Source: an uncultured SAR86 cluster bacterium (GTDB lineage Bacteria > Pseudomonadota > Gammaproteobacteria > Magnimaribacterales > D2472). From it: DNA of 64,000 nucleotides. The translations under genes were made by a program, and so were the position numbers. Below the pieces are notes generated by a model. It did not search any database. It saw nothing but the letters and a program-made list of their open reading frames with translations, and was not told where the DNA came from. The stretch's first letter is position 1, and each line of letters begins with the position of its first letter. Positions 55,486-63,653 of this stretch are shown here, one piece after another. The stretch spans positions 14,581 through 78,580 of the forward strand of contig CACBPP010000002.1 of NCBI GenBank assembly GCA_902541175.1, given 5' to 3'.

Positions 55486-56088
55486 ATGCAAATACTAGAC
55501 AAAATTAATAAAGAAAATATATCTGATGCCTTTGCACATTCTATGACAAGGTTTTTCAGAGTTATTGCTGATACATTTTTTGCAAAACGATATGGGCATA
55601 GAGCAGTTGTTCTAGAAACTGTTGCAGGTGTTCCTGGAATGGTTGCTGGTGTTTGGATGCACTTTAAAAGTTTAAGAGCTATGAAGGCTGGTTATGGTGA
55701 ACAAATTAGGGAGATGTTGGCCGAAGCTGAAAATGAAAGAATGCATTTAATGTTTTTTATTGAAATAGCAAAGCCCAATTTTTTTGAAAGAACTATAGTT
55801 CTATTTGCCCAGATTATATTTGGTCTCTTCTACCTATTCATGTATATCTTTTTCACACGAACTGCTCATAGAATGATTGGGTACTTTGAAGATGAAGCAG
55901 TGAAGAGTTATACAGAGTACTTGGAGCTTGTTGAATCAGGAATAGTTGAAAACATTCAGGCACCTGATCTTGCAATTAAATATTATAAGCTTGGTTCAGA
56001 TTCAAAGCTTTCTGACTTAATAAGGTGTGTTAGAGCTGATGAAGAACATCATAGTGAAACAAATCACAAATACGCAGATAAACTATAG
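55486..56088 (+). CDS. aox: alternative oxidase
   Basis: LETVAGVPGMV, EAENERMHL, FEDEAV..Y, RADEEHH diiron ligands. Confidence 0.95.
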   Translation: MQILDKINKENISDAFAHSMTRFFRVIADTFFAKRYGHRAVVLETVAGVPGMVAGVWMHFKSLRAMKAGYGEQIREMLAEAENERMHLMFFIEIAKPNFFERTIVLFAQIIFGLFYLFMYIFFTRTAHRMIGYFEDEAVKSYTEYLELVESGIVENIQAPDLAIKYYKLGSDSKLSDLIRCVRADEEHHSETNHKYADKL

Positions 56089-58967: not shown

Positions 58968-59390
58968 ATGAAACATTACATTTTATTTTTTCTAATGATT
59001 TTCTCTTCATTTAGTTATTCACATGAAATAAAGACTGTAATTGTTGAATTAAATGGTATGGACTTTGTAAACGATGATCTAACCTACGGTAATCAAATTC
59101 TTTGGATTCCTGAAATTGATGAGGAGGTTGTTGCATCTGGAAGTGTACAAGGCTTTTTAGCCAGATATAAAAAAGGTGATCTTCCTGACCCTGAAAAAGG
59201 TTTTGATTCAACAGAACAAAGATGGAGCCATTTACCAAATTTAAGTTTGTATTTTGATGAGCCAGCTTTCATATATTTAAGTCATGGCAATGGATATGTG
59301 AGACTTTCCTATCAATCACAAATTAGTATACAAGAAATGATGGATTACACCTCTGGTAGAAAGTTAAAAATAGTTATTCACAAAAACTAA
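58968..59390 (+). CDS. secreted hypothetical protein (islet cargo)
   Basis: Signal peptide MKHYILFFLMIFSSFSYS; no recognised family. Confidence 0.7.
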   Translation: MKHYILFFLMIFSSFSYSHEIKTVIVELNGMDFVNDDLTYGNQILWIPEIDEEVVASGSVQGFLARYKKGDLPDPEKGFDSTEQRWSHLPNLSLYFDEPAFIYLSHGNGYVRLSYQSQISIQEMMDYTSGRKLKIVIHKN

Positions 59391-59437
59391 TATTAAGCTA
59401 AAAACGTTTAAAAAATTTTAACTAATCAAAAATTATG

Positions 59438-60784
59438 TCAATAATTTATCTTCTTGGCATCAAACTTGTCTCTGAAATTTTTAATACGATTCCAGTCACC
59501 ATTAATAACAATTGTTTTACCTTCATCTTGAATGTTTAGATACATATTATTACCATCAGATGAAAAACAAATGCCAGCAATTTCTGAGCTACTATTACCA
59601 GCAACTCTTCCGAGTGGATAAAGCATACCATTTTGAGTACAACCAATTAATCTGCATGCATTGCTATCATTATCCTCACAGATAATGAGATCACCCCACG
59701 GTGTGACATTAATATTATCTCCTTCCCATAAGTCTTTTGTATCAGTTGATTCATAAAATAATGTGATTTTAGATTTACTTGGAGCATACGACCAAATTTG
59801 ACCCAGGCCTGCTTGACCGCCGTCTTTACAAGTAAAATAAATAACACTTTCTGAGTTAGCATCATTTGTAAAAATTATTCCTTCTCCACCACAAAAGATA
59901 GTTGCACCTTTTGATTTACCCTGAGTTTTTGTTCTTTTTTTCGAAGCACTTGGATCATCAATTAGGACCCAATCAACTGGAAAAGAATCGCCTGATTTTA
60001 TAGAACCATCTTTGTTCTCAGTGCTTTCTAAGTTCTTAATTCTAAGAGCTTCGAGAACACCTTCTCCGTCTAACTTATCTTTGATAGATGGTGTAAATTT
60101 ATAAAACAAGCCCATGGGATCGTCTTCTGTTTGATATATAGTGCCTTTTTTATCATTAATATCTACCGTGATAGCTTCTCTTTTAAATCTGCCCATTTCT
60201 GATAATCTTTTGAAACCATCTAAGGATTTTGTCTTTGGATTAATCTCAAACGCATAACCATGATCTCTATCGTAGGTTTCTTCACATGAAATCCAAGTAT
60301 TCCATGGTGTTTTTCCCCCAGCACAGTTCTTTTTTGTTCCTGTAAGACTTCTTCTTGAATCAATTACTTTTTTACCACTAGAGTCTAATATTAAGGTAGT
60401 AGTTCCACCATCATAAGGAATACCGAAACGTTTATCATATGCAGATATGGGATCAAGCCTCTTATCTAAATTATCTGTTTCATGATTTATTATAAGAGCA
60501 TTATTTCCATCATCTAACTTAAATGCTGCCATTCCATCGGGTCTTCTGCCATATGGAAGACCATCAGCCATAATATCTCCAGATGAAATTAGCACTTTGT
60601 ATGAGAAATTCATAGGTAAATCAAATAAACCAAGTGGGTCTGATAATAGAGAACCATCCCAAAAGTCATTAGTTGTACTTTTTAGGACAGAGCTCTTTAA
60701 AGGTCCAGTATAAGTATACAAAATAAATAAGGCAGAAGTCTTTGCAGTAAGTTTTAAAAACTCTCTTCTATTATTAATTGACAT
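59438..60784 (-). CDS. phoX: PhoX-family (DUF839) alkaline phosphatase, Tat-exported
   Basis: NRREFLK Tat motif; INHE, NCAGG.TPWNTWISCEE, GRFKRE, EDD, GEG, GDN, CED, SEIAG metal-ligand motifs. Confidence 0.85.
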   Translation of the reverse strand: MSINNRREFLKLTAKTSALFILYTYTGPLKSSVLKSTTNDFWDGSLLSDPLGLFDLPMNFSYKVLISSGDIMADGLPYGRRPDGMAAFKLDDGNNALIINHETDNLDKRLDPISAYDKRFGIPYDGGTTTLILDSSGKKVIDSRRSLTGTKKNCAGGKTPWNTWISCEETYDRDHGYAFEINPKTKSLDGFKRLSEMGRFKREAITVDINDKKGTIYQTEDDPMGLFYKFTPSIKDKLDGEGVLEALRIKNLESTENKDGSIKSGDSFPVDWVLIDDPSASKKRTKTQGKSKGATIFCGGEGIIFTNDANSESVIYFTCKDGGQAGLGQIWSYAPSKSKITLFYESTDTKDLWEGDNINVTPWGDLIICEDNDSNACRLIGCTQNGMLYPLGRVAGNSSSEIAGICFSSDGNNMYLNIQDEGKTIVINGDWNRIKNFRDKFDAKKINY

Positions 60785-60974
60785 TTATGTATATTAATAA
60801 CTTTTTAGATTTTTTAAATATATCTTTTTATATTTCACATAATTGTCTCATTTATGAAACTTTTTGATTGAAATATAATAACCAAACCTATACATGATTG
60901 TTGCATTTATTTAACAATGATAAGTTAAATTAATTTTTTAAAATTGTTTAGCTTAAAACTAAAATTAAATAGTA

Positions 60975-61688
60975 GTGATAATGAAAGACGAGGTTACAAT
61001 CGTTGTCCCGTGTAAAAATGAAGAGTCCTATATCTATTATTTGCTTGATAGTTTAAAGAAGCAAAAAGGCATGGAAGGCATAAGAATACTTATCGCAGAT
61101 TGCTCAACTGATAATACAAGAAGAGTTATTGAAAATCATAAAGAATGGTTGAATGTTAAAATTATTAAAGGTGGACCTGTTTCAGTCGCCAGAAATAACG
61201 GATCATATTTAGCAATCACGCCATATATTCTTTTCATAGACGCTGATGTTAGATTTTTTTCAAATACAGTAATCTACGATACTTTAAAACAAATGAAAGA
61301 GGAGGATTTACATTTAATGGGACTAAATATTAAATGTTATGACAAAGATCCAAGGGCTCAATTAAGTTTTTCAATATTTAATGTATTAAATAAAATAATG
61401 TCAAAGTGGATTCCTTTTGCTGTAGGAGCATATTTTCTAACTCGTAAAGATAGGTTTTATGAACATGGTAAATTTCCATGTAAGTATCCTACATCAGAGG
61501 ATTTTCACTTATCGAGGAAATATGATCCAAAGAAATTTAAAATTGCCAAACATTACTTTGGACAAGACAGCAGAAGGTTTAAAAAGATGGGATATTTAGG
61601 CATGTCCATTTATTTAATTAAAAATTTTTTATTTAAGGATAACCATAACTATTGGAATAACATAAATGAAAAACGATATTGGTCATAG
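60975..61688 (+). CDS. GT2 family glycosyltransferase
   Basis: IVVPCKNEE, ADCSTDNT, ARNNG, FIDAD (DxD), SED. Confidence 0.88.
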   Translation: MIMKDEVTIVVPCKNEESYIYYLLDSLKKQKGMEGIRILIADCSTDNTRRVIENHKEWLNVKIIKGGPVSVARNNGSYLAITPYILFIDADVRFFSNTVIYDTLKQMKEEDLHLMGLNIKCYDKDPRAQLSFSIFNVLNKIMSKWIPFAVGAYFLTRKDRFYEHGKFPCKYPTSEDFHLSRKYDPKKFKIAKHYFGQDSRRFKKMGYLGMSIYLIKNFLFKDNHNYWNNINEKRYWS

Positions 61689-62412
61689 AAGTGTATTCAT
61701 TTCAGATTTACATTTAGGTAGCAAACACTGCAAAGACAAAGAACTCTTAAAATTTCTTCAAGAAGTTAGAACAAAAAAGCTATATTTAGTCGGCGATATT
61801 ATTGATGGCTGGAGACTTAAGAAAAAATGGTATTGGCCAGATAATCATAATAGAATAATTAAACAACTTATTCGTATTTCAAAATATGCAGAAGTTTATT
61901 GGATTAGTGGTAATCATGACGAGTTCTTAAGAACAGTTCCAACGATTAACATTGGGAATATTGAAACACATAATAGAATGGTTCACGTGGGTGTTGATGA
62001 GAACAAATATCTCGTAGTACACGGAGATATGTTCGATTATTTGATGAGAACAAAATTTGGTAAAAGAATAATGTATATAGGTGATTGGGGTTACGATAGA
62101 TTAATTAATTTTAATTACCTATTAAATAAAGTGAGAGCATTCTTTGGTTATAAACCTTGGTCACTATCAAAATTCCTTAAAAGAAAAGCAAAGATAGCCA
62201 CAAATTTCATCGGTGAGTTTGAAACACAAATGATTAATTACGCCAGAATGAAAAAGTATGACGGAATTATATGTGGTCACATACATCATGCAGAAATTCG
62301 ACAACACGATGAAATTAAATATATGAATGATGGTGATTGGTGTGAAAGCTGTTCAGCGCTTATTGAAGATCATGAAGGTAACTGGTTCATAAAGTATTAT
62401 CAACCATTATAG
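61666..62412 (+). CDS. plcP: PlcP-like / LpxH-like metallophosphoesterase (phospholipase C)
   Basis: FISDLHLG, LVGDIIDGW, GNHDEFLR, HGDMFD, YKPWSLS, FIGEFE, CGHIHH, YMNDGDWCESCSALIE. Confidence 0.8.
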   Translation: MKNDIGHRSVFISDLHLGSKHCKDKELLKFLQEVRTKKLYLVGDIIDGWRLKKKWYWPDNHNRIIKQLIRISKYAEVYWISGNHDEFLRTVPTINIGNIETHNRMVHVGVDENKYLVVHGDMFDYLMRTKFGKRIMYIGDWGYDRLINFNYLLNKVRAFFGYKPWSLSKFLKRKAKIATNFIGEFETQMINYARMKKYDGIICGHIHHAEIRQHDEIKYMNDGDWCESCSALIEDHEGNWFIKYYQPL

Positions 62413-62464: not shown

Positions 62465-62540
<76 letters not shown>

Positions 62541-62600: not shown

Positions 62601-63653
62601 TTATGATTTAGTGGATATAACCTTTTTGTCAGACTTTTTTAAAAGATAGTGTGAAACAAAATATTCTTTGCCATTATTTAATGCAAAGAAAGCATCACAA
62701 GATAAAAAAAAGATTCTCCATCTGTTGTACCAAATTTTTGGTTTATCATAGTATTTTCTAAATATTTCTAATATTTTTTTCTTATTTTTATAATGATTAT
62801 TTAACCAAGCTTTACAAGTTTTTGAATAGTTATTTCCATTAATATTCCATTGGTTAATAATTACCAATTCATCCTCAAAATACTCAAAGATGTCTCTACT
62901 TGGCATAATTCCTCCTTGAAAAAAATATTTTGTCATCCAATCAAAATTATTCTTCAATTCATAGAAGTATGTTAATTTTTTATGGCAAAAAATATGAATA
63001 AATAATCTTCCATCAGACTTTAATAATTTATTAAGAGATTTTAAGATCGATTTATAATTTCTAAGATGTTCAAACATTTCAATTGAAACAATACGATCAA
63101 AATGATTGTCTAAATCAAGGTTATTAACATCCATTTTAATAGCTTTAATATTTGATAAACCTCTTTTTTGAGCTTCATTTTTGATATAAGTAATTTGATC
63201 ACTAGAATTACTGATTGACGTTATGTTTGTGTTTGGATATTTTTTAGCTACAAAAAACGAAAAACTACCCCAACCACAACCTAGATCAAGAACGTCTTGG
63301 CCATTTTTAATTTCAGCTCTCTCTAAGTATAGATTAAGCATAGAATTTTCTGCTTCATCTAAAGAATGATCGTTATCAAATAAAGAGCAAGAATATTTTA
63401 GGTTTGAACCAAGAACTTGATTAAAAAATTCAGGAGGAACTTCATAATGTTGTTCATTGGCATCATATGTTTTTTCAGCAACAGCACCTTTAGAAAGCGC
63501 GCTGATGATTACGTCCTTATTATTAGAATGAGTTGATTCAATTAAACGCCTAGAGGATATATGTCGTGCAGCGATTTTAATTAAGGAATCAGGAATAAAA
63601 CCTGATTCTGCTAGTAATAAGAGAAATCTAGTCATATGTTGCATAACATTCAT
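62601..63653 (-). CDS. SAM-dependent methyltransferase, cyclopropane-fatty-acid-synthase-like
   Basis: NEQHYEVPPEFF, LKYSCS, LDLGCGWGS, SIEMFEHLRN, GRLFIHIFCH. Confidence 0.88.
   Translation of the reverse strand: MNVMQHMTRFLLLLAESGFIPDSLIKIAARHISSRRLIESTHSNNKDVIISALSKGAVAEKTYDANEQHYEVPPEFFNQVLGSNLKYSCSLFDNDHSLDEAENSMLNLYLERAEIKNGQDVLDLGCGWGSFSFFVAKKYPNTNITSISNSSDQITYIKNEAQKRGLSNIKAIKMDVNNLDLDNHFDRIVSIEMFEHLRNYKSILKSLNKLLKSDGRLFIHIFCHKKLTYFYELKNNFDWMTKYFFQGGIMPSRDIFEYFEDELVIINQWNINGNNYSKTCKAWLNNHYKNKKKILEIFRKYYDKPKIWYNRWRIFFLSCDAFFALNNGKEYFVSHYLLKKSDKKVISTKS

What the first reader, a model, noticed from the sequence alone, without database searches (positions are those of the whole stretch)
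60975..62412. PlcP-like phospholipase coupled to a GT2 rather than the usual GT4/BtaAB partner
Seen: overlapping GT2 and PlcP-like genes. Established: PlcP releases diacylglycerol under P stress, and in SAR11/alphaproteobacteria the DAG goes to the GT4 Agt glycolipid synthase or to betaine lipid synthesis. Inference: this GT2 may make a different P-free glycolipid, giving a two-gene portable lipid-remodelling module.
Basis: partly seen in the sequence, partly recalled or inferred. Interest (0 to 1): 0.7.

Follow-up and report, generated by a model that had tools for sequence, protein, structure and literature searches.

The report
PlcP–GT2 lipid-remodelling cassette shared with phages
A SAR86 marine bacterium carries, next to its alkaline phosphatase genes, an overlapping gene pair (a PlcP-type phospholipase and a previously unnoticed small glycosyltransferase) that probably swaps phosphate-containing membrane lipids for sugar lipids, and the same two-gene cassette turns out to be widespread in marine and freshwater phages.

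Summary
GT2 (60981-61688) and a metallophosphoesterase (61666-62412) overlap by 23 nt on the + strand.

The window is from SAR86 (SAG AG-901-I16), not SAR11.

- **The esterase is a PlcP, not LpxH.** It scores 221 and 213 bits (46% and 44% identity) against S. meliloti and P. aeruginosa PlcP, which score 248 bits against each other. E. coli LpxH gives 29 bits, far below the NCBIfam LpxH cut-offs. PlcP-specific motifs are present.
- **The GT2 is a confident GT-A fold (pLDDT 94).** It has no TM segment and a basic, aromatic tail. No curated family claims it.
- **The two genes are strictly linked.** In 64 loci they are always adjacent and co-oriented, in either order, and they co-diverge (Mantel r 0.82). 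The GT2 is not seen without PlcP.
- **Most carriers are phages.** They include T4-like marine myoviruses and freshwater phages, often beside pstS or a phosphate porin.
- **In SAR86 the pair faces PhoX.** It shares a 16-mer with PhoD promoters and is transcribed in seawater.

GT2 glycosylation of PlcP-derived diacylglycerol is inferred, not shown.

Verdict: new variant of a known kind; interest about 0.68.

The parts
59438..60784 (-). PhoX-type alkaline phosphatase, divergently transcribed from the GT2-plcP pair
   Evidence: PF05787 PhoX, E 1.6e-58. The same divergent arrangement occurs in all SAR86 loci. It is transcribed in seawater metatranscriptomes.
60785..60980 (.). Divergent intergenic control region between phoX and the GT2
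   Evidence: Sequence shown and alignment across six SAR86 loci. Sigma-70-like hexamers on the + strand lie at 60917-60982 (consensus matches only).
60833..60860 (+). Candidate regulatory repeat, copy A (TTTCACATAATTGTCTCATTTATGAAAC)
   Evidence: A degenerate copy of the element below, with 11-bp periodicity. It matches the E. coli Pho-box consensus only 13/18, which is not significant.
60888..60915 (+). Candidate regulatory repeat, copy B; its 3' 16-mer GTTGCATTTATTTAAC lies at 60900-60915
   Evidence: Among the 106 loci held, the exact 16-mer GTTNCATTTATTTAAC occurs only in SAR86 loci. It is always in this spacer, and it also lies about 22 nt upstream of the 528-aa PhoD ORF in L002, L083 and L085. 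Within the 64-kb window only these two sites match at up to 3 mismatches.
60981..61688 (+). GT2-family (GT-A, inverting) glycosyltransferase of 235 aa; proposed diacylglycerol glycosyltransferase
   Evidence: PF00535. AF2 model with pLDDT 93.9 and pTM 0.91. GT-A neighbours are TarP/TarS, AvpGT, PcManGT and K4CP. The DXD motif is IDADV at residues 86-90. There is no TM segment, the net charge is +13, and the tail is basic and aromatic. It is strictly linked to plcP.
61666..61688 (+). 23-nt overlap of the GT2 stop and the plcP start (possible translational coupling)
   Evidence: The overlap is conserved in SAR86 and in marine phage copies. RNA contigs span it (X1 rec 7, X3 rec 21, X4 rec 28).
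61666..62412 (+). PlcP-type metallophosphoesterase (phospholipase C of the lipid-remodelling pathway), 248 aa
   Evidence: 221 bits against S. meliloti PlcP, 213 bits against P. aeruginosa PA3219 and 29 bits against E. coli LpxH. It is below the LpxH cut-offs. PlcP-specific motifs are present. It has an LpxH-like fold with a helical cap.
62465..62540 (-). tRNA-Ala(GGC), the conserved right-hand boundary of the phoX-GT2-plcP block
   Evidence: It occupies the same position in seven other SAR86 loci, while the genes beyond it differ between strains.

Best explanation
This is a phosphate-stress lipid-remodelling operon of SAR86. PlcP, an LpxH-fold, metal-dependent phospholipase C, removes the phospho-head group from membrane glycerophospholipids and leaves diacylglycerol (DAG). 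The co-translated GT2 is a peripheral membrane GT-A enzyme. It transfers a sugar from a nucleotide sugar onto that DAG and makes a phosphorus-free glycolipid, probably beta-linked because GT2 enzymes invert. The neighbouring PhoX, and PhoD in sister strains, can then release phosphate from the freed head groups. The pair behaves as a self-contained mobile cassette. Its nearest relatives and most of its diversity are in phages, where it probably serves as an auxiliary metabolic gene pair that mobilises host membrane phosphorus during infection.

Shown here: gene structure, PlcP family membership, GT-A fold, strict linkage and co-divergence, phage carriage, phosphate-gene contexts, and transcription in situ.

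Inferred: the PlcP substrate, DAG as the GT2 acceptor, the sugar donor, the anomeric configuration, Pho regulation, and the role in phage infection.
For: PlcP identity:
- 46% identity and 221 bits to S. meliloti PlcP (beside sinR/sinI), and 44% and 213 bits to P. aeruginosa PA3219 (followed by agt1). Those two characterised enzymes score 248 bits against each other.
- E. coli LpxH gives 29 bits. The NCBIfam LpxH models score 44.6 against a cut-off of 134 and 34.5 against 190.
- The protein shares GNHDEFLR, WYWP, CGHIHHAEI and NDGDWCESC with the PlcPs. LpxH has GNRDFLL, HGHTHRPAV and LGAW at those positions.
- The model has an LpxH-type core plus a five-helix cap.

GT2-PlcP linkage:
- 64 loci carry both genes. 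All are adjacent and co-oriented, 30 as GT2>plcP and 34 as plcP>GT2. Mantel r is 0.82, with 0 of 2000 permutations reaching it.
- Linkage persists down to 45-50% GT2 identity.
- GT2-based scans, which are unbiased for plcP, always found plcP beside the GT2.
- PlcP does occur without this GT2 (16 loci), which fits the GT2 acting downstream of PlcP.

Phosphate context:
- PhoX is divergent from the pair, and PhoD is adjacent in sister strains.
- An exact 16-mer is shared by the spacer and the PhoD upstream regions.
- Viral contigs carry PstS plus phosphate porin O/P, or PstS alone, next to the pair.
- pstS lies next to the solo PlcP in pelagimyophage Mosig.

Other support:
- GT2 membrane features: no TM segment, net charge +13, basic and aromatic C-terminal helices.
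- Precedent: M. genitalium MG517 is a GT2 that beta-glycosylates DAG and binds the membrane by a C-terminal amphipathic helix (PMC6506492).
- SAR86C is listed with PlcP but without Agt, BtaB or SqdB in its genome (PMC4796936, Table S2), so SAR86 otherwise lacks a known partner.
- Expression: 18 seawater metatranscriptomes hold the region, and contigs span the gene junction.
Against: - No biochemical data exist for any member of this GT2 family.
- The fold neighbours act on teichoic acid, polysaccharide or polyprenyl phosphate, not DAG, so the fold cannot assign the acceptor.
- No direct sequence comparison with the GT2 DAG glycosyltransferases MG517 or MgdA could be made.
- The match to the E. 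coli Pho-box consensus is not significant (13/18, reached by about 9% of random windows). In the PhoD promoters the shared 16-mer lies unusually close to the annotated start, about 22 nt away.
- The absence of RNA contigs on the flanks may reflect strain-variable flanks rather than specific induction.
- Hosts of the cassette-bearing phages are unknown (gp43 is only 49% identical to any isolate). Viral status of some IMG/VR and MAG contigs rests on context only.
Confidence: 0.6

Rival explanations
1. PlcP is a genuine lipid-remodelling phospholipase, but the GT2 glycosylates another membrane-associated acceptor, such as polyprenyl phosphate, LPS core or a surface polymer. It would remodel the cell surface, for instance to exclude superinfecting phages. 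On this view the linkage reflects co-regulation or shared membrane localisation rather than substrate channelling.
For: The best structural superposition is to the polyprenyl-phosphate mannosyltransferase PcManGT (TMq 0.75), and TarP/TarS are close. PHROG matches are weakly GtrB-like. Pelagimyophage glycosyltransferases have been interpreted as LPS modifiers (PMC7029224).
Against: The GT2 lacks the C-terminal TM helices of GtrB/ArnC-type enzymes. It is not found without PlcP across more than 60 loci and two gene orders, and the two genes co-diverge, which is hard to explain without a shared pathway. No flippase or GtrA/GtrC-like partner is nearby. The contexts are phosphate genes, not O-antigen genes.
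Confidence: 0.2
2. The pair is a GT-then-phosphatase pathway for a soluble or lipid-linked phosphosugar product, analogous to glucosyl-3-phosphoglycerate synthase plus phosphatase. The esterase would act after the GT2 rather than before it.
For: Some family members weakly match the GpgS model (11 of 37, best E 1e-10). The gene order GT2>esterase in SAR86 would fit a GT-first pathway.
Against: The esterase is 44-46% identical to experimentally proven PlcPs along its whole length, including the lipid-binding cap. The opposite gene order is equally common. The esterase occurs widely without this GT2, and then with DAG-using partners such as Agt.
Confidence: 0.07
3. The esterase is the housekeeping lipid A enzyme LpxH, as many automatic annotations say, and the GT2 is an LPS or cell-wall glycosyltransferase.
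For: JGI and PGAP name the homologues 'UDP-2,3-diacylglucosamine pyrophosphatase/diphosphatase'. The fold is LpxH-like.
Against: It scores 44.6 against 134 bits and 34.5 against 190 bits on the LpxH equivalog models. It scores 29 bits against E. coli LpxH, compared with 213-221 bits against the PlcPs. It has GNHD where LpxH has GNRD. The same misannotation sits on the proven PlcPs of S. meliloti and P. aeruginosa. It is present in phages and beside PhoX, not among lpx genes.
Confidence: 0.03

Closest known systems
PlcP-Agt lipid-remodelling operon (SAR11 HTCC7211 PB7211_983/960; P. aeruginosa PA3219/PA3218; Phaeobacter MED193; Methylosinus OB3b)
   Same: It has a PlcP-type phospholipase C (44-46% identical to characterised members) tightly coupled to a glycosyltransferase gene, often overlapping it. 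It sits in a phosphate-stress context, and the expected outcome is a phosphorus-free glycolipid.
   Different: The partner is a 235-aa GT-A GT2 (inverting) instead of a roughly 335-350-aa GT-B GT4 (retaining). No sequence similarity to P. aeruginosa Agt1 was detected. In SAR86 the gene order is GT first. The cassette is predominantly phage-borne.
Other published plcP neighbourhoods: Pgt (GT21, Mesorhizobium loti), UgtP/YpfP-like GT in type Ia methanotrophs, 'uncharacterised glycosyltransferase' of Bacteroidetes (Sebastian et al. 2016, types 3 and 5; PMC9239053)
   Same: These show that plcP recruits different glycosyltransferases in different lineages.
   Different: The window GT2 does not hit the GT21 Pfam model. 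It is unrelated to the Bacteroidetes partner, represented here by the Parabacteroides 384-aa GT (no significant BLAST hit). SAR86 was scored as having no lipid gene next to plcP.
MG517 of Mycoplasma genitalium (GT2 processive diacylglycerol beta-glycosyltransferase); cyanobacterial MgdA (own knowledge)
   Same: It is in CAZy family GT2 with a GT-A catalytic domain of about 200 aa, followed by a C-terminal basic or amphipathic membrane-binding segment. It is a monotopic peripheral enzyme.
   Different: MG517 is 341 aa, essential and not linked to PlcP.
LpxH (UDP-2,3-diacylglucosamine diphosphatase)
   Same: It shares the calcineurin-like metallophosphoesterase core plus a helical lipid-binding cap. 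LpxH structures are the ten best structural matches.
   Different: Sequence similarity is marginal (25-29 bits). The protein has GNHD, not GNRD. It is below all LpxH family cut-offs and has a different genomic context.
Phosphate-related auxiliary metabolic genes of marine phages (pstS, phoH, phoA)
   Same: The cassette sits beside pstS, a phosphate porin or phoH in viral contigs and in T4-like genomes.
   Different: No paper in the searched library reports a phage-encoded PlcP or a PlcP-glycosyltransferase pair. The isolate phages Mosig and S-SRM01 annotate the gene as an LpxH-type hydrolase.

Membership tests
PlcP (SMc00171 / PA3219-type phospholipase C of lipid remodelling) | Calcineurin-like metallophosphoesterase domain with the full set of metal-binding motifs | tested here: met
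   PF00149 E 3.4e-12. Motifs: SDLHLG 13-18, GDIIDGW 43-49, GNHDE 82-86, VHGD 118-121, CGHIHH 203-208.
PlcP (SMc00171 / PA3219-type phospholipase C of lipid remodelling) | Groups with experimentally characterised PlcPs rather than with LpxH | tested here: met
   221 bits (46%) to S. meliloti PlcP and 213 bits (44%) to P. aeruginosa PA3219. The two score 248 bits against each other. E. coli LpxH gives 29 bits. An NJ tree rooted on LpxH places the window protein inside the PlcP clade.
PlcP (SMc00171 / PA3219-type phospholipase C of lipid remodelling) | PlcP-specific sequence signatures, including the cap region | tested here: met
   WYWP, GNHDEFLR, the xWSLS...K.K.A.NFI.EFE cap block, CGHIHHAEI and NDGDWCESC are shared with both characterised PlcPs and are absent from LpxH.
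PlcP (SMc00171 / PA3219-type phospholipase C of lipid remodelling) | Induced by phosphate limitation (Pho regulon) | tested here: inconclusive
   The gene is divergent from PhoX, PhoD is adjacent in sister strains, and a 16-mer is shared with PhoD upstream regions. However, the E. coli Pho-box match is not significant, and the phosphate status of the metatranscriptome samples is unknown.
PlcP (SMc00171 / PA3219-type phospholipase C of lipid remodelling) | Mn-dependent hydrolysis of PE/PG/PC to diacylglycerol | not testable with these tools
   This needs an enzyme assay or complementation of a plcP mutant.
LpxH (lipid A biosynthesis) | Reaches the curated equivalog score | tested here: not met
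   NF003743 scores 44.6 against a cut-off of 134 bits, and TIGR01854 scores 34.5 against 190.35 bits.
LpxH (lipid A biosynthesis) | GNRD motif (Arg in place of the usual His) and LpxH-type C-terminal motifs | tested here: not met
   The window has GNHDE and CGHIHHAEI, where E. coli LpxH has GNRDF and HGHTHRPAV.
Agt / GT4 glycolipid synthases | GT-B fold, Glycos_transf_1 domain, similarity to Agt | tested here: not met
   Only GT2 Pfam models hit. The AF2 model is a single-domain GT-A. There is no BLAST hit to P. aeruginosa Agt1.
Pgt / GT21 processive glycolipid synthases | Glyco_transf_21 domain | tested here: not met
   PF13506 is not among the Pfam hits at E up to 0.01. No direct comparison with mlr5650 was made.
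GT2 diacylglycerol glycosyltransferases (MG517 / MgdA type) | GT-A catalytic domain with a DXD motif | tested here: met
   PF00535. IDADV at 86-90 with D87 and D89 invariant. pLDDT 93.9 GT-A model.
GT2 diacylglycerol glycosyltransferases (MG517 / MgdA type) | Monotopic membrane association through a basic or amphipathic C-terminal segment, with no TM helix | tested here: met
   Maximum KD19 is 1.06, so no TM segment. The net charge is +13. C-terminal helices 198-234 are rich in K/R and F/Y/W. Membrane binding itself is inferred.
GT2 diacylglycerol glycosyltransferases (MG517 / MgdA type) | Sequence relationship to MG517 or MgdA | not tested
GT2 diacylglycerol glycosyltransferases (MG517 / MgdA type) | Transfers sugar to diacylglycerol | not testable with these tools
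   This needs heterologous expression and lipidomics.
GtrB / DPMS / ArnC-type polyprenyl-phosphate GT2 | C-terminal transmembrane helices after the GT-A domain | tested here: not met
   There is no hydrophobic segment. The protein ends at residue 235, after short amphipathic helices.
Phage auxiliary metabolic gene | Encoded inside bona fide phage genomes among phage core genes | tested here: met
   In contigs of about 150 kb the cassette lies between regA and gp43, near gp44/62, gp45 and UvsX. It also lies in a 273-kb contig with a RecA-like gene and an RNA ligase, and between the RNR subunits next to a phage primase. The window copy itself is chromosomal SAR86.

The most novel reading that the evidence does not exclude
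Phages, not bacteria, are the main reservoir of a complete two-enzyme lipid-remodelling cassette. T4-like marine myoviruses and freshwater phages would use plcP-GT2 to strip phosphorus from host membrane phospholipids for their own DNA synthesis, refilling the membrane with a beta-glycolipid until lysis. SAR86 would then have captured the cassette at a tRNA-Ala site and wired it into its phosphatase regulon. If the GT2 is processive like MG517, it could also be the unidentified source of heterotrophic di-glycosyl-DAG seen in P-depleted seawater (the open question raised in PMC4796936).
Probability: 0.35. Interest if true: 0.85.

Novelty: new variant of a known kind. Interest (0 to 1): 0.68.

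Why it matters
PlcP-based lipid remodelling is a major way ocean bacteria economise on phosphorus, but the glycolipid step is known only for GT4 Agt and a few other enzymes. SAR86, one of the most abundant surface-ocean heterotrophs, was left without any known partner.

This work identifies a candidate for that step: a compact GT2 family that occurs essentially only beside PlcP.

It also shows that the pair is common in phages, frequently inside phosphate-acquisition gene clusters. If confirmed, lipid remodelling would join pstS, phoH and phoA as a virus-manipulated phosphorus process. It would also affect how plcP counts and glycolipid biomarkers in metagenomes and lipidomes are attributed: many 'PlcP' reads at about 60% identity to SAR86 are viral.

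Finally, it corrects a systematic misannotation. These genes are labelled LpxH and 'cell wall glycosyltransferase' in public records.

Tried and rejected
- **LpxH identity:** rejected on family cut-offs, pairwise scores and motifs.
- **E. coli-type Pho box in the phoX-GT2 spacer:** the best match is 13/18, reached by about 9% of random 200-bp windows, so it is not used as evidence. A lineage-specific shared 16-mer is reported instead.
- **Equivalence with the Bacteroidetes 'uncharacterised glycosyltransferase' next to plcP:** rejected, because the Parabacteroides partner is an unrelated 384-aa protein.
- **GT2 in isolated phages:** none found in INPHARED. Only solo PlcP homologues occur, in Mosig and S-SRM01.
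- **Curated family for the GT2:** none. TIGR04283 is the nearest, at 55 against 182 bits.
- **Donor sugar:** the best solved sequence relative is the K4CP region 375-556, and a truncated UDP-glucose-dehydrogenase-like ORF follows the pair in L084. This hints at UDP-GlcA but is too weak to claim.
- **PlcP key-residue paper (Wei et al. 2018, PMC6052262):** not held, so PlcP-specific residues were derived from my own alignment.
- **Zero RNA coverage of the flanking genes:** considered as evidence of specific induction, but set aside because the flanks differ between SAR86 strains.
- **Asymmetry in the hit lists:** many GT2 hits at 87% identity or more, but few for PlcP. This is explained by clustering, since the PlcP cluster alone has 309 members.
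Full report
**Observation**

- The window holds two + strand ORFs. One is a GT2 glycosyltransferase, listed from GTG 60975. Its likely start is ATG 60981, which gives the 235-aa product seen in all homologues. The other is a calcineurin-like metallophosphoesterase (MPE) at 61666-62412.
- They overlap by 23 nt, with the MPE in the +1 frame.
- Upstream and divergent lies a PhoX alkaline phosphatase (59438-60784, PF05787 E 1.6e-58). Immediately downstream lies tRNA-Ala(GGC).

**Organism**

- A scan of 185,579 species-representative genomes returned a 100% GT2 match in 'uncultured SAR86 cluster bacterium isolate AG-901-I16'.
- The rest of the window carries TonB-dependent receptors, ExbB, AOX and similar genes, which is ordinary SAR86 chromosome without phage genes.

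**Is the MPE PlcP or LpxH?**

- It falls far below the curated LpxH models: 44.6 against 134 bits, and 34.5 against 190 bits. It matches only one PDB LpxH, at 25.8 bits.
- PLSDB happens to hold a 3.7-Mb S. meliloti record and P. aeruginosa records labelled as plasmids. The S. meliloti hit lies beside sinR/sinI, which by my own recollection of S. meliloti gene numbering is the SMc00171 position. The P. aeruginosa hit is followed, with a 4-nt overlap, by a 'family 1' glycosyltransferase, which is the PA3219/PA3218 (plcP/agt1) arrangement of Jones et al. 2021.
- Against these two characterised PlcPs the window protein scores 221 bits (46.4%) and 213 bits (44.2%). They score 248 bits (46.6%) against each other. 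E. coli K-12 LpxH scores 29 bits over 85 residues.
- An NJ tree rooted on LpxH places the window protein inside the PlcP clade.
- It shares WYWP, GNHDEFLR, CGHIHHAEI, NDGDWCESC and the cap-region block with both PlcPs. LpxH reads GNRDFLL, HGHTHRPAV and LGAW at those positions.
- An AF2 model (pLDDT 85) has LpxH structures as its ten best matches. It also has a five-helix cap at residues ~120-195, in the position where LpxH binds acyl chains.
- The protein is therefore a lipid-directed enzyme of LpxH architecture and a member of the PlcP family.

**The GT2**

- It hits only GT2 Pfam models and no curated NCBIfam family. The nearest is TIGR04283, at 55 against 182 bits.
- AF2 gives a confident single-domain GT-A fold (pLDDT 93.9, pTM 0.91). 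The neighbours are AvpGT, TarP, TarS, PcManGT (TMq 0.75) and K4CP.
- It has an invariant DXD motif (IDADV, residues 86-90), no TM segment, a net charge of +13 and a C-terminal set of basic, aromatic helices.
- It is unrelated to P. aeruginosa Agt1 (GT4) and to the Parabacteroides glycosyltransferase that follows plcP there.
- A GT2 acting on diacylglycerol has precedent. M. genitalium MG517 is a GT2 processive DAG beta-glycosyltransferase anchored by a C-terminal amphipathic helix (PMC6506492).

**Linkage**

- The same PhoX<->GT2-plcP-tRNA-Ala block is present in eight other SAR86 loci, while the genes beyond it vary.
- A GT2-based scan of IMG/VR gave 29 contigs at 58-80% identity. Every one with enough flank has a PlcP gene adjacent.
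- The GT2-based genome scan found close relatives only in SAR86 and in four freshwater MAG contigs, all with PlcP adjacent. The next GT2 (35% identity, Chitinophagales) has none.
- Three divergent family members (45-50% identity) again have an overlapping upstream MPE.
- Over all loci held, 64 carry both genes. All are co-oriented and adjacent, 30 as GT2>plcP and 34 as plcP>GT2. The pairwise divergences of the two proteins correlate (Mantel r 0.82, 0 of 2000 permutations).
- PlcP occurs without this GT2 in 16 loci, but the reverse was not seen. This asymmetry is what a downstream, DAG-consuming partner would show.

**Phages**

- Outside SAR86, the nearest PlcP relatives (58-65% identity) lie in T4-like myovirus contigs. 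These carry gp32 and gp59, or gp44/62, gp45, RegA, gp43 and UvsX, or PhoH, ClpP and GH19.
- Several of these contigs carry the overlapping GT2-plcP cassette. One example lies between regA and gp43 in eleven contigs of 50-200 kb.
- The carrier's gp43 is only about 49% identical to cyanomyovirus isolates, so the host is unknown.
- In freshwater IMG/VR contigs the order is plcP>GT2. The neighbours are a PstS-like protein plus phosphate-selective porin O/P (L034), PstS alone (L066), or the two RNR subunits plus a phage primase (L031).
- In Pelagibacter phage Mosig a solo homologue, annotated as an LpxH-type hydrolase, is divergent from pstS.
- The closest non-SAR86 copy (L012, 80-82% identity) is flanked by CsgG/CsgF, hemE and a CHASE2 cyclase. 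All of these have full-length PHROG matches, and curli genes are known in pelagimyophages (PMC7029224).
- No paper in the searched library links PlcP to phages.

**Regulation and expression**

- The E. coli Pho-box consensus gives no significant match.
- The spacer does contain two related 28-mers. The exact 16-mer GTTNCATTTATTTAAC of the second recurs about 22 nt upstream of the 528-aa PhoD gene in three SAR86 loci. It occurs nowhere else in the 106 loci held or in the window. This is a candidate shared control site, and its function is inferred.
- Eighteen seawater metatranscriptomes hold 53-66% of the region's k-mers. In four of them phoX, the GT2 and plcP are covered, and three contigs cross the GT2/plcP junction. 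This is consistent with one transcript.

**Comparison with what is known**

- Sebastian et al. 2016 (PMC4796936) reported PlcP in SAR86. However, they listed SAR86C with no neighbouring lipid gene and with no Agt, BtaB or SqdB in its genome, because they searched only with Agt, BtaB, OlsF, SqdB and Pgt.
- Other non-Agt partners are known: Pgt, a UgtP-like GT, and the Bacteroidetes GT.
- The finding is therefore a new variant of a known kind. It has the same PlcP logic, a new dedicated GT2 partner, and a cassette that is largely viral.

**Verdict**

- PlcP membership is well supported, at about 0.9.
- The GT2 as a DAG glycosyltransferase is the best explanation, at about 0.6.
- The role as a phage auxiliary metabolic gene pair is plausible but untested.

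Noticed in passing
window 59416-60980 (run X2, contig record 9): One metatranscriptome contig joins 59416 directly to 60980 with 'AAA' between them. This skips the whole PhoX gene, so a natural SAR86 variant has the 140-aa ORF directly upstream of GT2-plcP on the same strand.
   Followed up: no
window 58968-59390 (+): A 140-aa ORF with an N-terminal signal-peptide-like segment and no Pfam or NCBIfam hit. It is conserved next to PhoX in L003 and L085 and is covered by RNA contigs. It could be a PhoX-associated periplasmic protein.
   Followed up: partly
window 62465-62540; L003, L085, L089 at the same position: The tRNA-Ala directly after plcP has anticodon GGC in some SAR86 strains and TGC in others at the identical locus. 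The genes beyond it differ between strains, as at an island boundary.
   Followed up: partly
L001, L002, L003, L083, L085 versus window: Identity is mosaic within the pair. For example, L083 has the GT2 at 93% but PlcP at 99.6%, while L085 has the GT2 at 98% but PlcP at 93%. This suggests recombination inside the cassette among SAR86 populations.
   Followed up: no
L084:4398-5911: In a freshwater contig, plcP>GT2 is followed by a truncated UDP-glucose/GDP-mannose dehydrogenase-like ORF (250 aa) and faces a class-3 lipase. This is a possible hint at a UDP-glucuronate donor and at further lipid turnover.
   Followed up: partly
L034:2493-6702; L066:2898-5447: Large IMG/VR contigs (220 and 264 kb) carry PstS-like binding protein, phosphate-selective porin O/P, plcP and GT2 in a row, or PstS, plcP and GT2. 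This is a compact viral phosphate-acquisition cluster.
   Followed up: partly
L086 (Haliscomenobacter MAG), L087 (Polynucleobacter MAG), L084 (Crocinitomicaceae MAG), L088 (Gammaproteobacteria MAG): MAGs from unrelated phyla carry phage-type plcP>GT2 pairs. Their PlcPs are 83-84% identical to the freshwater viral copy in L086-L088 and 54% in L084, on contigs with phage-like genes. These are probably viral contigs mis-binned into MAGs.
   Followed up: partly
L076 (CP090106.1), L077 (NZ_CP137508.1): PLSDB records labelled as plasmids look chromosomal. One is a 3.7-Mb S. meliloti 'pSymB' carrying sinI/sinR. The other is a 96-kb P. aeruginosa 'plasmid' carrying the PA3219-PA3218 region.
   Followed up: no
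L012:7419-9461 and L077:5810-7201: An adenylate/guanylate cyclase-domain gene lies next to the plcP-GT pair both in the L012 contig (CHASE2-cyclase) and in P. aeruginosa. This may be coincidence or a signalling link.
   Followed up: no
window 60933: RNA contigs covering phoX from three runs all end exactly at 60933, 149 nt upstream of the phoX start codon. This is either a defined 5' end or an assembly break at a strain-variable T-run.
   Followed up: no
window 62601-63653 (-) and 55486-56088 (+): A cyclopropane-fatty-acid-synthase-like methyltransferase (PF02353, E 2e-46) lies just beyond the tRNA, and an alternative oxidase lies upstream. The CFA-like gene is also present in L083 at 79% identity. 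It is another membrane-lipid-modifying gene near the cassette.
   Followed up: no
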